Positions 27,600 through 30,449 of a stretch of DNA of 64,000 nt are shown here, piece after piece. Position numbers and translations under genes: made by a program. The notes under the pieces were generated by a model. That model saw nothing but the letters and a program-made list of their open reading frames with translations, had not been told where the DNA came from and ran no database searches. Location of the stretch: positions 4,939 to 68,938 of the forward strand of contig JBAYLE010000001.1 of NCBI GenBank assembly GCA_041664225.1, written 5' to 3'. Origin of the DNA: Parcubacteria group bacterium. GTDB lineage: Bacteria > Patescibacteriota > Minisyncoccia > Moranbacterales > UBA2206. Every line of letters starts with the position of its first letter. Position 1 is the stretch's first letter.

Positions 27600-30449
27600 A
27601 TGGAAAACTACGATCCGAAGCTTATTGAGCCAAAATGGCAGGAATTTTGGCTTAAAGAAGGCATTTATAAAAACTACGAGAAATCTAAGAAGTTCTATGC
27701 TCTGGATATGTTTCCGTATATTTCCGGTTCGGGTATTCATGTAGGGCATCCAAAAGGGTATATTGCGACCGATGTGGTGTCGAGGTTCAAGATGCTTCAA
27801 GGATACAGCGTGCTTCATCCGATGGGCTGGGACGCTTTTGGGCTGCCAGCAGAAAATTATGCCATTAAAAATAAGATCAATCCCAACATTTTTGTGAAGG
27901 AAAATATTATCAGGTTCAAAAAACAGCTGGAGATGTTTGGCTTCACTTACGATTGGGACAGGGAATTCAGCACAACTGATCCGAATTACTATAAATGGAC
28001 GCAATGGATATTTCTGAAATTATTCGAGAAAGGTTTGGCGTATGAGTCCAATGAGCCGGTTAACTGGTGTTCGAGTTGCAAAACTGTATTGGCCAATGAA
28101 GATTTGGAGAAAGGATTGTGCGAGCGCTGCGGCACGCAAGTGGTGCAGAAAAAAATGAGGCAATGGGTTCTTAAAATGACTGATTACGCCGATCGCCTGC
28201 TTTATGATCTGGATACGGAGGGTCTCGATTGGGAGGAACAAATTCTTGAGCAACAAAGAAATTGGATCGGAAGAAGCGAAGGAGCGGAAATAGAATTCCA
28301 AATTTCAAATTCAGAATTTAAAATTAAAGTTTATACAACCAGAGTCGATACTATTTTCGGCTGCACTTATTGCGTTATCGCGCCGGAACACGAAACAGTC
28401 CAAAAGCTGAAAAATAAAATAGAAAACTGGGATGAGGTTGAAAAATATTTAATCGAATCACAAAACAAAACAGAATTGGAAAGAATGGAATTGAAAGACA
28501 AGACGGGGGTCGAACTAAAGGGAATCAAGCTTATTAATCCATTCAACGGAGAATCAGTTCCATTGTTTGCTGCGGATTATGTTTTAGCGCACTATGGAAC
28601 CGGCGCGGTGATGGCTGTGCCGGCGCACGATGAAAGAGATTTTGAATTCGCGAAGAAATATAATTTACCGATTAAAAATGTTATCGGGCCATGTTTTTGT
28701 CAGCAAACTGAACCAGGCAAAATCAAAGAGAAAGAGCCATTTGAAGAGAGAGATGCTGTGCTAGCGATTGTTAAACATCAGGATAAAGATGAATATTTGG
28801 GGCTAAAATGGAAACAAGTGGATTGGAAAACTTTCATAACTGGTGGTCCAGAAGAAGGTCAAACTGCCGAAGAAGCAGCCAGGATGGAGGTTCTTGAGGA
28901 AACCGGATATAAGAACTTGAAATTGATCAAAGAATTGCCGATGGTGCATAGTAAATTTTATCATGTGCCGAAGAAATTAAATCGGCTTGCTCATTTTCGT
29001 GTTTTTTACTTTGAGTTGGAAAATGACGAGCATCAGGAAATTTCAGAAATTGATAAGAAAAGGCATGAAGTCGTTTGGGTGACGAAGGAAAAAGTGGAAA
29101 CTTTTTTAACGCCGGAATCACAAATATATACCTGGCAGACATTACTGGGAAAAGAAAAACCGTATGTTGACGATGGTGTCTTAGCAAATTCTGACAAATA
29201 TTCCAGCATGACCTCCGAGGAAGCACGTGAAAAAATGACCGAGTGGCTGGAAAAAGAAAAAATTGGCGAGAAAAAAATAAATTACAAAATGCGCGACTGG
29301 GTTTTTTCGCGCCAACGTTATTGGGGTGAGCCGATTCCGATCGTGCATTGCGAAAAATGCGGAGCGGTTGCGATTTCGGAAAAAGAATTGCCGTTAAAAT
29401 TGCCCGAAGTCGAAAATTATGAGCCGACCGGAACCGAAGAGGGTCCATTGGCCAACATAACTGAGTGGGTAAATACGACTTGCCCAAAATGCGGCGGACC
29501 GGGGAAGCGTGAAACAAACACGATGCCGCAATGGGCGGGATCCAGCTGGTATTATCTTCGCTATATTGATCCAAAAAATAATGAAGCCCTGGTTGAAAAA
29601 AATAAAGAAAAAGATTGGATGCCAGTGGATCTTTATGTCGGTGGTGCAGAACACGCCACTCGTCATTTGCTGTATGCCAGATTTTGGCACAAATTTCTGT
29701 ATGATATCAAAGTTGTTTCTACGAAGGAGCCCTTCAAAAAACTGGTTCACGTCGGACTGGTTGATGGAGAAGACGGCAGAAAAATGAGTAAGCGCTGGGG
29801 GAACGTAGTAAATCCTGATGATGTTATAAATGAATTTGGGGTTGATTCGTTGCGTCTTTATGAAATGTTTATGGGGCCTTTCAGTCAGAATATTGCCTGG
29901 AGCACGGATGGCGTAAAAGGAGTGAGAAGGTTTTTGGAAAAAGTTTGGAAGTTACAAAAAAAAGTTATTGATCAAGTTGTAGAAAATAAAAAACTTGAAT
30001 CACTGTTGCATAAAACTATCAAGAAAGTCACGGAGGATATAAAAAATTTTCGTTTCAATACTGCCATTAGCGCGATGATGATTCTGGTAAATGAATTAGA
30101 AAAAGGGAAAAATATTTTAAGCACCAATTACAAATTGCTAATCACTATTTTGAGTCCTTTTGCTCCACACATTGCTGAAGAACTTTGGGAAAAGTTGGGG
30201 CATAAAGATAGCATATTTTTGCAATCTTGGCCAGAGTATGATCCGGAACTAATCAGAGATGAAAAAATAACGTTGGTCTTGCAAATAAATGGCAAAGTGC
30301 GTGATTCAATCGAAGTGGATGCTGGGATTTCAGAAAAGGAGGCAAAAGAGCTGGCGATGCAAAGCGAAAAAATAAAAACTTGGGTTTCAGGCAAAGAAAT
30401 CAAAAAAGTTATTTTTGTCAAAGGCAAACTTATAAATATTGTCATCTAA
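27600..30449 (+). CDS. leuS: Leucyl-tRNA synthetase carrying a Nudix-like domain insertion after the CP1 editing domain
   Basis: HVGHPKGY, editing-domain motifs ([26 protein letters not shown]), and KMSKRWGN. The roughly 160-aa insert contains AVLAIV...[23 protein letters not shown]. Confidence 0.9.
   Translation: [949 protein letters not shown]
28692..29175 (+). other. Nudix-like domain inserted within leuS
   Basis: Sits between the conserved IKNVIG and [18 protein letters not shown] blocks, which are about 55 aa apart in E. coli LeuRS. Confidence 0.6.

What the first reader, a model, noticed from the sequence alone, without database searches (positions are those of the whole stretch)
28692..29175. 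Nudix-hydrolase-like domain inserted inside leucyl-tRNA synthetase
Between the end of the CP1 editing domain (…[22 protein letters not shown]) and the conserved [18 protein letters not shown] block, E. coli LeuRS has about 55 residues. This LeuRS has about 190. The extra segment includes [52 protein letters not shown], which is a near-canonical Nudix box (Gx5Ex7REUxEExGU with one extra residue). It resembles the stand-alone Nudix encoded at 14153-14584. A Nudix fold embedded in an aaRS could hydrolyse Ap4A-type by-products or misactivated aminoacyl-adenylates (pre-transfer editing in cis). That would be a new accessory function for a synthetase. The idea of a functional role is speculative; the insertion itself is clear from the sequence.
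Basis: partly seen in the sequence, partly recalled or inferred. Interest (0 to 1): 0.72.

Follow-up and report, generated by a model that had tools for sequence, protein, structure and literature searches.

The report
Swappable Nudix domain inside leucyl-tRNA synthetase
A complete Nudix hydrolase domain really is inserted into a surface loop of the editing domain of this candidate-phyla bacterium's leucyl-tRNA synthetase, and near-identical relatives carry a different Nudix, an unrelated filler or nothing at the same spot, so it behaves like an exchangeable cassette in an essential gene.

Summary
The gene at window 27600-30449 (+) encodes a complete bacterial-type LeuRS of 949 aa. HIGH, KMSKS and the editing-site residues are all intact. 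Residues about 364-525 form an independently folding Nudix domain (Pfam PF00293 at 44-48 bits against a cut-off of 21; AF2 pLDDT 95; Foldseek probability 1.0 to Nudix enzymes). It replaces the 11-13-residue loop of the T. thermophilus and E. coli CP1 domains.

The Nudix box has canonical spacing, with E7->Q and R15->M rather than an extra residue. The stand-alone Nudix at 14141-14584 is not a specific relative.

The architecture is common in Patescibacteria: at least 571 matching stretches in species-representative genomes, about 72 of the best 80 inside leuS. I found no paper on it.

The main new result is that the insert is decoupled from its host gene. Syntenic relatives with 78-88% DNA identity in the flanks carry a 30%-identical Nudix, a 42-aa filler or a 17-aa loop, with sharp breakpoints at about 28675 and 29185. 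The cassette is under purifying selection (dN/dS about 0.04-0.13), and its three catalytic glutamates are invariant in 76 of 76 embedded copies.

The most likely function is an active pyrophosphohydrolase of RppH / ApnA-hydrolase type tethered to LeuRS. The substrate is unproven.

The parts
27600..30449 (+). leuS: complete bacterial-type leucyl-tRNA synthetase, 949 aa, carrying the insert
   Evidence: ORF. TIGR00396 at 1042 bits. 100% identical to database protein P0068, which is seen in NCBI, JGI, ENA and Logan assemblies.
27738..27749 (+). HIGH motif (HVGH, aa 47-50) of the synthetic site
   Evidence: Invariant in 80 aligned LeuRS. Coordinates.
28257..28688 (+). CP1 editing domain, main part (aa 220-363). 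It includes the T-rich motif TTRVDT (28335-28352) and AHDERD with the universal Asp344 (28623-28640).
   Evidence: Pfam PF13603 covers aa 220-366. T246, T247, D250, T251 and D344 are invariant. Coordinates.
28689..29174 (+). Nudix cassette (aa 364-525). It is a complete alpha/beta/alpha Nudix domain of a Patescibacteria-specific, LeuRS-associated family ('Q-class').
   Evidence: Pfam at 48.5 bits. AF2 pLDDT 94.8. Foldseek. Family HMM at 237 bits. DNA similarity to syntenic relatives stops at about 28664-28676 and resumes at about 29172-29189.
28842..28910 (+). Nudix box [23 protein letters not shown] (aa 415-437). E430, E433 and E434 form the REx2EE-type metal-binding triad. Position 7 is Q and position 15 is M.
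   Evidence: E16, E19 and E20 of the box are invariant in 76 of 76 embedded copies. The helix at aa 423-435 appears in both AF2 models.
28953..28985 (+). Family-conserved segment [11 protein letters not shown] downstream of the box (F453, Y454 at +17, H455, K458, N461, R462). This is the putative X-loop or substrate pocket.
   Evidence: F90, H92, K95, N98 and R99 are invariant in alignment A1. The pattern F-[YF]-x3-K-x2-N-R is also present in E-class copies. The tyrosine motif of ApnA hydrolases is described in PMC5389931.
29175..29300 (+). C-terminal part of CP1 and its return to the catalytic core (GVLANS ... KINYKMRDW)
   Evidence: The second stretch of the alignments to 1H3N/2V0C and 4AQ7-type chains. 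Coordinates.
29781..29795 (+). KMSKS motif (KMSKR, aa 728-732)
   Evidence: K728, M729, S730 and K731 are invariant. Coordinates.

Best explanation
The segment is a whole, independently folding Nudix pyrophosphohydrolase domain of about 155 aa. It is inserted in frame into a short surface loop of the CP1 editing domain (T. thermophilus residues 363-373) of the organism's otherwise ordinary, fully equipped LeuRS.

It belongs to a small Nudix family that is confined to Patescibacteria and found mostly inside leuS. Some members are free-standing genes, and in one case the free gene lies directly upstream of leuS. The loop is a cassette site. By recombination through the highly conserved flanks, closely related leuS genes have gained, lost or exchanged the module.

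Shown: the domain, its position, its fold, conservation of the metal-binding glutamates, purifying selection, and cassette turnover.

Inferred:
- The module is catalytically active (about 0.65). It would use E430, E433 and E434 to bind Mg2+ and cleave a diphosphate linkage.
- It is not needed for aminoacylation or editing, because close relatives lack it.
- Its most likely substrates are adenine dinucleoside polyphosphates or related 5'-polyphosphate/cap structures, as for RppH and ApnA hydrolases (about 0.4). Tethering to LeuRS would place the hydrolase where such nucleotides are made or where tRNA is bound.
For: Domain and position.

Fold: pLDDT 94.8 for the insert alone and 88 for the full length, with a helix at 423-435. 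Foldseek top hits are 2AZW, NudI, the CT771, Aquifex and Plasmodium Ap4A hydrolases, the Ndx1 Ap6A hydrolase and RppH.

LeuRS intact: HIGH, KMSKS, the T-rich motif and D344 are invariant.

Catalytic residues: E16, E19 and E20 of the box occur in 76 of 76 embedded copies. E16 and E20 occur in 67 of 67 free-standing copies and E19 in 58 of 67.

Active Nudix enzymes with deviant boxes are known, and E7 is described as structural (PMC5389931).

Purifying selection: cassette dN/dS is about 0.04-0.13, similar to the CP1 core in the same pairs.

Family size and location:
- 77 of the 120 best LeuRS hits (the window's own protein P0068 and 76 others) carry a Nudix in this loop.
- At least 571 stretches in species-representative genomes match, and about 72 of the best 80 are embedded at this loop.
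- Only 321 clusters at E<=1e-10 among 1.84 billion representatives. Of the 148 of the listed best hits that were retrieved, 93 carry LeuRS motifs.

Link in trans: a free family member lies 2 nt upstream of a leuS gene.

Cassette behaviour:
- Insert identity and backbone identity are uncorrelated (r = -0.10).
- P0070 has an 86% identical backbone but a 30-32% identical insert, with the same synteny.
- L088 is 84-88% DNA-identical in the flanks but carries a 42-aa filler.
- L089 carries an E-class Nudix and L090 a 17-aa loop in the same syntenic context.
- P0074 and P0117 share a 95% identical backbone but their Nudix modules are 36% identical.
- For L016/L019, cassette dS is 0.027 against 0.567 for the CP1 core.

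Substrate hint: Y454 lies 17 residues after the box.
Against: - No enzymology exists for any family member.
- The window's subclass has lost two canonical box residues (E7->Q, R15->M), which may weaken or alter activity.
- Every NCBIfam Nudix equivalog, including RppH, NudI, NudB and MutT, scores far below its cut-off: at most 24 bits against cut-offs of 95-259. No subfamily is assigned.
- PDB sequence matches are weak, with a best E-value of 2e-5 to a protein of unknown function.
- The +17 aromatic residue is Tyr or Phe across the family, and fold similarity among Nudix enzymes does not discriminate substrates.
The distance and orientation of the Nudix site relative to the editing site, the synthetic site and the tRNA are unknown.
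- Frequent loss in close relatives shows the module is dispensable for LeuRS. That fits an accessory enzyme but also a passenger.
Confidence: 0.6

Rival explanations
1. Non-catalytic or passenger module. The Nudix fold would be tolerated in a permissive loop and act only as a structural, binding or regulatory appendage, or as a selfish in-frame 'domain parasite'. Such a parasite would persist because imprecise deletion would destroy an essential gene.
For: - The window's subclass deviates at two box positions.
- Nearest relatives lack the module or carry unrelated fillers at the same site: 17-aa and 42-aa loops, a 116-120-aa unknown domain, and an NTase-like domain.
- Breakpoints are sharp and copies occur at a second site in the same protein.
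Against: - The three metal-binding glutamates are invariant in 76 of 76 embedded copies. About 15 further residues are invariant across the window's insert and 66 free-standing copies.
- dN/dS of about 0.04-0.13 is as low as in the editing domain. Non-catalytic Nudix folds typically lose the box glutamates (PMC5389931).
- There is no mobility machinery, target-site duplication or inverted repeat.
- There are no intein junction residues.
Confidence: 0.2
2. Conflict or detoxification cassette. The loop would host interchangeable nucleotide-modifying enzymes (Nudix variants, an NTase-like domain, and elsewhere in the protein HAD and alpha/beta-hydrolase domains). These would neutralise nucleotide-type inhibitors, toxins or alarmones aimed at LeuRS or tRNA-Leu. 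Diversifying selection would drive the rapid exchange.
For: - The turnover is extremely patchy and rapid among near-identical hosts.
- The cassette has been shared more recently than its flanks (L016/L019).
- Some LeuRS carry up to three family Nudix modules plus HAD or serine-hydrolase domains.
- An NTase-like domain (PF10706/PF14907) occupies the identical loop.
- NCBIfam lists an IleRS with a fused GNAT domain, a precedent for an accessory enzyme on a synthetase.
Against: - No known defence or immunity family is involved, and PADLOC was not searched.
- Known LeuRS-directed adenylate mimics carry a single phosphate or phosphoramidate, which Nudix enzymes are not known to cleave (own knowledge).
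- Within a class the cassette evolves under purifying, not positive, selection.
- No family members were found on viral contigs.
Confidence: 0.12
3. Cis pre-transfer editing. The Nudix domain would hydrolyse misactivated aminoacyl-adenylates released from the synthetic site.
For: Only its location within the editing domain and the adenine-nucleotide nature of the proposed substrate.
Against: - Nudix enzymes act on nucleoside diphosphates linked to X by recognising the pyrophosphate (PMC5389931). An aminoacyl-adenylate has a single phosphate in a mixed anhydride.
- The CP1 post-transfer editing residues are fully conserved, so no editing gap needs filling.
- Close relatives manage without the module.
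Confidence: 0.03
4. Artefact. The insert would be an assembly chimera, a frameshifted neighbouring gene or a mis-called ORF.
For: None found.
Against: - The ORF is a single uninterrupted reading frame.
- The identical protein is present in NCBI, JGI, ENA and Logan assemblies on two contigs of up to 198 kb.
- Dozens of homologous LeuRS have the same architecture.
- The composition of the insert is not distinct: GC3 0.35 against 0.41 +/- 0.05 for the gene.
Confidence: 0.01

Closest known systems
Stand-alone bacterial Nudix hydrolases of the RppH / ApnA-hydrolase type (E. coli RppH 7SP3/4S2X, C. trachomatis CT771 4MPO, Aquifex Ap4A hydrolase 3I7U, T. thermophilus Ndx1 1VC8) and the uncharacterised E. 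faecalis 2AZW
   Same: - Same alpha/beta/alpha fold (TM 0.6-0.8).
- A 23-residue box with canonical spacing and the ExxEE glutamates.
- An aromatic residue 17 positions after the box, as in ApnA hydrolases.
   Different: - Only 12-23% identity.
- All curated subfamily models score below their cut-offs.
- Box positions 7 and 15 are Q and M.
- The domain is not a free protein. It is embedded in another enzyme's domain through a two-stranded stalk (strands 362-367 and 526-528).
Characterised bacterial LeuRS (T. thermophilus 1H3N/2BYT, E. coli 4AQ7/4ARC, Agrobacterium 5AH5, Neisseria 6Q89)
   Same: Same domain order, with the HIGH, KMSKS, T-rich and Asp editing motifs. Identity in the CP1 stretch is high enough for E-values of 1e-50 to 1e-73.
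   Different: Those enzymes have an 11-13-residue loop where this one has a domain of about 160 residues. Their known idiosyncratic modules, such as the leucine-specific domain and the Zn modules, lie elsewhere and are not enzymes (own knowledge).
Aminoacyl-tRNA synthetases with an accreted accessory enzyme domain, such as IleRS with an N-acetyltransferase domain (NCBIfam NF040702), and cis/trans editing modules such as AlaX and YbaK
   Same: A second catalytic domain is physically joined to a synthetase.
   Different: - Those are terminal fusions or dedicated aminoacyl-tRNA deacylases.
- Here a nucleotide pyrophosphohydrolase fold is inserted inside the editing domain.
- It is exchanged between near-identical genes.
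Inteins: in-frame, horizontally spreading insertions in essential genes
   Same: In-frame, domain-sized, patchily distributed among close relatives, with sharp boundaries in a conserved essential gene.
   Different: - There are no splice-junction residues. The insert starts with P-C-F after Gly and ends ...VDD|G, with no HN-C/S/T.
- There is no Hint fold.
- The insert is a conserved enzyme domain that evidently stays in the mature protein.

Membership tests
Nudix superfamily (Pfam PF00293) | Profile HMM match above the curated gathering score | tested here: met
   44 bits in the full protein and 48.5 bits for aa 365-525, against a cut-off of 21.1.
Nudix superfamily (Pfam PF00293) | Alpha/beta/alpha sandwich fold with a loop-helix-loop carrying the box | tested here: met
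   AF2 pLDDT 94.8 with a helix at aa 423-435. Foldseek probability 1.0 and TM up to 0.82 to Nudix structures.
Nudix superfamily (Pfam PF00293) | Full canonical box GX5EX7REUXEEXGU | tested here: not met
   Spacing is canonical, but position 7 is Q and position 15 is M in [23 protein letters not shown]. Among the 76 embedded relatives tabulated, 56 have E at position 7 and 57 have R at position 15.
Nudix pyrophosphohydrolases (catalytically active members) | Metal-binding glutamates of REx2EE (box positions 16, 19, 20) | tested here: met
   E430, E433 and E434 are present. They are invariant in 76 of 76 embedded copies.
Nudix pyrophosphohydrolases (catalytically active members) | Divalent-cation-dependent hydrolysis of a nucleoside diphosphate linked to X | not testable with these tools
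   Requires enzymology.
ApnA hydrolase / RppH subfamilies | Match to curated equivalog models (such as NF001936 RppH) above cut-off | tested here: not met
   The best score is 23.8 bits against a cut-off of 118. All Nudix equivalogs are far below their cut-offs.
ApnA hydrolase / RppH subfamilies | Tyrosine in the X-loop about 16-18 residues after the box | tested here: inconclusive
   Y454 is at +17 in the window, but the position is Y or F across the family. The motif is described in PMC5389931 and is only a correlate.
Bacterial-type leucyl-tRNA synthetase (TIGR00396) | Equivalog HMM above cut-off, with HIGH and KMSKS motifs | tested here: met
   1042 bits against a cut-off of 548. HVGH at aa 47-50 and KMSKR at aa 728-732.
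Bacterial-type leucyl-tRNA synthetase (TIGR00396) | CP1 editing domain with the T-rich motif and the universal Asp | tested here: met
   PF13603 at 205 bits. T246, T247, D250, T251 and D344 are invariant.
Intein | N-terminal Cys/Ser and a C-terminal His-Asn followed by Cys/Ser/Thr at the junctions, plus a Hint fold | tested here: not met
   The junctions read ...NVIG|PCF... and ...YVDD|GVL.... The fold is Nudix.
Transposable-element insertion | Target-site duplication and/or terminal inverted repeats flanking the insert | tested here: not met
   No inverted repeats, and only chance-level short direct repeats, in 28400-29500.

The most novel reading that the evidence does not exclude
The CP1 loop of Patescibacteria LeuRS would be a dedicated landing site for horizontally exchanged, in-frame enzyme cassettes: several Nudix classes, an NTase-like domain and an unknown domain. 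A second site and further HAD and alpha/beta-hydrolase insertions occur in 'giant' LeuRS. On this reading, an essential synthetase serves as a scaffold for a fast-evolving set of nucleotide-modifying activities. These might counter inhibitors, toxins or alarmones that act on LeuRS or tRNA-Leu. It would be a form of domain-level mobile genetics and defence not described for any aaRS.
Probability: 0.15. Interest if true: 0.88.

Novelty: new variant of a known kind. Interest (0 to 1): 0.68.

Why it matters
Bacterial aminoacyl-tRNA synthetases are thought of as architecturally conservative. Here a second enzyme sits inside the editing domain of an essential synthetase in hundreds of candidate-phyla species, and some relatives carry three such modules plus other hydrolases.

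The module is swapped, lost or replaced between genes that are about 80-90% identical at the DNA level. This gives a natural experiment in domain insertion and in how recombination remodels essential genes in tiny genomes.

If the module degrades ApnA or cap-type nucleotides, it would physically couple alarmone or cap turnover to tRNA charging. If it is a conflict cassette, it would be a new kind of defence locus.

Either idea is directly testable with the recombinant protein and the natural 'minus-cassette' alleles.

Tried and rejected
- **Paralogy with the window's stand-alone Nudix (14141-14584).** Rejected: BLASTP E = 1.4, and 27 bits against the family HMM versus 237 for the insert.
- **Intein.** Rejected: no junction residues and a Nudix fold.
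- **Transposon-type insertion.** Rejected: no target-site duplication or inverted repeats.
- **Recently acquired foreign DNA.** Composition is not distinct: GC3 0.35 against 0.41 +/- 0.05.
- **Phage vector.** IMG/VR holds no family member, only three weak hits (28% identity, or the box region alone).
- **Specific Nudix+HAD pathway module.** The HAD gene beside a free family member (L002) is not specifically related to the HAD domain inside giant LeuRS P0114 (E = 0.36). The link is only at superfamily level.
- **Structured RNA in or near the gene.** No Rfam hit in the whole window.
- **Functional assignment by curated models or solved relatives.** Nothing specific emerged.
- **Literature.** Eight full-text searches on Nudix with LeuRS, aaRS, CPR, Patescibacteria, Parcubacteria or Ap4A found no description of this architecture. 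The Nudix clan review PMC5389931 does not mention tRNA or synthetases at all.
- **Direction of evolution (free gene to insert, or the reverse).** Could not be settled. In a rough NJ tree the free Q-class proteins nest among embedded copies, but sampling was seeded on the window's insert, and free E-class members also exist.
- **Geometry of the Nudix site relative to the LeuRS sites.** Model coordinates are not returned by the tool.
- **One dN/dS script timed out** and was rerun.
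Full report
**1. What is there**

The ORF at window 27600-30449 (+) encodes a 949-aa protein. It matches the bacterial LeuRS equivalog TIGR00396 at 1042 bits against a cut-off of 548. The match comes in two stretches because something interrupts it.

Pfam finds the class I catalytic domain, the LeuRS editing domain (PF13603, aa 220-366), the anticodon-binding domain and a NUDIX domain. 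The NUDIX domain (PF00293) scores 44 bits on aa 406-503, or 48.5 bits when aa 365-525 are scanned alone. The cut-off is 21.1.

Alignment to solved LeuRS structures places the extra segment precisely. The window aligns to T. thermophilus LeuRS up to residue 362 (LPIKKVI) and resumes at residue 374. For the E. coli construct the alignment stops at 381 and resumes at 395. The reference enzymes therefore have an 11-13-residue loop here, and this protein has about 160 residues.

In 80 aligned relatives the HIGH motif (H47-H50), KMSKS (728-731), the editing T-rich motif (T246, T247, D250, T251) and the universal editing Asp (D344) are invariant. By sequence the host is a fully equipped LeuRS.

**2. 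The insert is a real Nudix domain**

An AF2 model of aa 364-526, built on 67 sequences, has mean pLDDT 94.8. Foldseek against the PDB returns only Nudix enzymes at probability 1.0:
- 2AZW (function unknown);
- NudI;
- the CT771, Aquifex and Plasmodium Ap4A hydrolases;
- the Ndx1 Ap6A hydrolase;
- RppH, NudB and ADP-ribose pyrophosphatases.

The full-length model has pLDDT 88 and pTM 0.78. It keeps the same secondary structure for aa 362-515, with confidence around 90 through both junctions. Strands 362-367 and 526-528 suggest a two-stranded stalk connecting the module to CP1. Coordinates are not returned by the tool, so I could not examine the orientation relative to the editing and synthetic sites.

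**3. The Nudix box**

Counted from G415, the sequence [23 protein letters not shown] has exactly the canonical spacing. The deviations are Q at position 7 (canonical Glu) and M at position 15 (canonical Arg), with an Arg at position 14. There is no extra residue.

In 76 LeuRS-embedded relatives, E16, E19 and E20 (E430, E433 and E434 here) are invariant. Position 7 is E in 56 and Q in 19. Position 15 is R in 57 and M, A or T in 18, and these two changes largely go together. I call the two forms 'E-class' and 'Q-class', and the window carries the Q-class.

The Nudix clan review describes E7 as stabilising the loop-helix-loop and lists active hydrolases with deviant boxes (PMC5389931). Beyond the box, the window's insert and 66 free-standing relatives share invariant R384, W404, W409, F453, H455, K458, N461, R462 and W493. 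Y454 sits 17 residues after the box, where ApnA hydrolases have a tyrosine. The position is Y or F across the family, so this is only a lead.

All curated NCBIfam Nudix subfamily models score far below their cut-offs. The best PDB sequence match is E = 2e-5 to a protein of unknown function. No substrate can be assigned by homology.

**4. How common it is**

A full-length search returned the window's own protein (P0068) from NCBI, JGI, ENA and Logan assemblies, on contigs of up to 198 kb. It also returned dozens of 940-1000-aa LeuRS at 60-76% identity that carry PF00293. They are labelled Parcubacteria, Moranbacteria and Pacebacteria.

Measured between the anchors NVIG and GVLANS, the loop has these contents among the 120 best hits:

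| Loop content | Where seen |
|---|---|
| 12-19 aa minimal loop | minimal relatives |
| Nudix domain of about 143-176 aa | 77 of 120 (the window's P0068 and 76 others) |
| Unknown domain of 116-120 aa | 5 proteins |
| Nucleotidyltransferase-like domain (PF10706/PF14907) | 2 proteins |
| Various short fillers of 24-55 aa | several |

Of the best 80, about 72 lie inside leuS at this loop or at a second site just before CP1. Seven are free-standing genes. Nearly all are labelled Patescibacteria/CPR lineages, and a few bins carry other labels.

An exhaustive profile search of 1.84 billion cluster representatives found only 321 proteins at E<=1e-10. Of the 148 of the listed best hits that were retrieved, 93 carry LeuRS motifs and 38 are short free proteins of either class.

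In one genome a free Q-class gene lies 2 nt upstream of a leuS gene that itself carries an E-class insert. 'Giant' LeuRS of 1130-1560 aa contain two or three family modules. The triple-module ones have an E-Q tandem before CP1 and an E-class module in the loop, and some also carry a HAD or a serine-hydrolase domain.

I found no paper that describes any of this.

**5. The insert behaves as an exchangeable cassette**

Across 58 Nudix-bearing LeuRS compared with the window, backbone identity averages 70% and insert identity 42%. Over all 1711 pairs the means are 68% and 35%, and the two are uncorrelated (r = -0.10).

- P0070 is 86% identical to the window protein in the backbone (94% in the catalytic core) but about 30% identical in the insert. 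The change occurs right at the domain borders.
- Its gene sits in the same context as in the window: DUF4349, leuS, an SLT/LysM protein, then further downstream an NTP-transferase.

At the DNA level, the window was compared with three related leuS loci:

| Locus (protein) | Loop content | Flanking DNA identity to the window |
|---|---|---|
| L088 (P0072) | 42-aa filler | 84-88% |
| L089 (P0076) | E-class Nudix | 77-83% |
| L090 (P0078) | 17-aa loop | 78-80% |

For L089 and L090 the similarity extends across the ATP-synthase operon and leuS. In every comparison the alignment stops at about 28664-28676 and resumes at about 29172-29189.

The same pattern recurs elsewhere:
- P0074 and P0117 have a 95% identical backbone, but their Q-class and E-class modules are 36% identical.
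- P0139 and P0147 have a 95% identical backbone, with a 116-aa domain in one and 39 aa in the other.
- P0089 and P0135 have a 93% identical backbone, with a Nudix in one and 53 aa in the other.

A backbone NJ tree shows the loop states interleaved at the tips. Conversely, some cassettes are more alike than their hosts. L024 and L046 are 86% identical in the cassette but 67% in the CP1 core. For L016 and L019 the cassette dS is 0.027 against 0.567 for the adjacent CP1 core.

There is no target-site duplication or inverted repeat. Base composition is not distinct. There are no intein junctions, and no family members on viral contigs. The simplest mechanism is homologous recombination through the very conserved flanks (...[18 protein letters not shown] and DG-L-NS...). 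This is an inference.

**6. Is it functional?**

Where synonymous divergence is measurable, cassette dN/dS is about 0.04-0.13. That is the same range as the CP1 editing core in the same genome pairs. Many dS values are near saturation, so these are rough figures.

Together with the invariant glutamate triad, this argues for a selected, probably catalytic function rather than a decaying passenger. Because close relatives lack the module, it cannot be required for aminoacylation or editing.

**7. Most likely mechanism and its limits**

I commit to an active Mg2+-dependent Nudix pyrophosphohydrolase, at probability about 0.65. Within that, the most likely substrates are dinucleoside polyphosphates or related 5'-polyphosphate/cap structures, as for RppH and ApnA hydrolases, at about 0.4.

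The module would be tethered to LeuRS so that it acts where aaRS side reactions produce ApnA or where the tRNA is held. The support is indirect: fold neighbours, the weak best NCBIfam hits to RppH, the aromatic residue at +17, and the known ApnA synthesis by synthetases (own knowledge).

A passenger or selfish-domain reading and a conflict or detoxification reading both remain open. The rapid turnover and the variety of enzymes found at the same site give the conflict reading some appeal, but nothing here tests it.

**8. Verdict**

The object is a new architectural variant built from two well-known families. It is already present in sequence databases, where it carries plain LeuRS or generic class I tRNA ligase names alongside precomputed Pfam NUDIX hits, but I found no description of it in the literature.

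The cassette behaviour is the most interesting aspect and deserves follow-up.

Noticed in passing
P0091, P0102, P0105, P0114, P0121, P0131, P0145, P0149, P0150, P0181 (database proteins; no window coordinates): 'Giant' Patescibacteria LeuRS of 1290-1560 aa contain three modules of the same Nudix family. An E-class and a Q-class copy sit in tandem between the catalytic N-part and CP1, and a third copy sits in the CP1 loop. Some also carry a HAD_2 domain between the RDW and KMSKS motifs (P0114, P0145) or a serine-hydrolase alpha/beta domain before CP1 (P0102, P0181). P0109, P0143 and P0169 (1133-1264 aa) carry two family modules: a Q-class copy before CP1 and a second in the loop.
   Followed up: partly
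P0172, P0182; P0110, P0111, P0128, P0139, P0162 (database proteins): In other close relatives the identical CP1 loop holds a nucleotidyltransferase-like domain (PF10706/PF14907, about 165-170 aa) or a 116-120-aa domain with no Pfam match. P0139 and P0147 share a 95% identical backbone but differ by this unknown domain.
   Followed up: partly
L006 5001-5534 and 5537-8410 (also L007): A free-standing Q-class family Nudix gene (P0008, 177 aa) lies 2 nt upstream of, and co-directional with, a 957-aa leuS that carries an E-class Nudix in its loop. This shows a genomic link between the family and leuS even when the Nudix is not fused.
   Followed up: partly
L016 and L019 (pre-CP1 Nudix cassettes, about 672-1157 and 711-1196): The cassette is 98% identical with dS 0.027, while the adjacent CP1 core has dS 0.567. 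This looks like a very recent horizontal transfer of the cassette alone between diverged leuS genes.
   Followed up: partly
window 13480-16022: The unrelated stand-alone Nudix gene (14141-14584) is wedged between rsmI (13480-14151) and metG, which encodes MetRS (14574-16022). It overlaps each neighbour by 11 nt. This is a second Nudix-synthetase juxtaposition in the same genome, possibly just dense gene packing.
   Followed up: partly
window 25044-26084: A 346-aa protein two genes upstream of leuS gives a weak but above-threshold match to the carboxysome shell carbonic anhydrase catalytic domain (PF20686, 26 bits). The syntenic relative L090 has a Pro_CA_2-like gene at the corresponding place, while L089 has none.
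   Followed up: no
L002 4400-5486 (also L003): A free-standing family Nudix (P0021) lies 4 nt downstream of a HAD-IA phosphatase gene. That HAD is not specifically related to the HAD domain embedded in giant LeuRS.
   Followed up: yes
L014, L019, L025, L073 (record titles): Some genome bins carrying this Patescibacteria-type leuS are labelled Bdellovibrionales, Gammaproteobacteria or Woesearchaeota. These are probably mis-binned or mislabelled contigs rather than true occurrences outside Patescibacteria.
   Followed up: no
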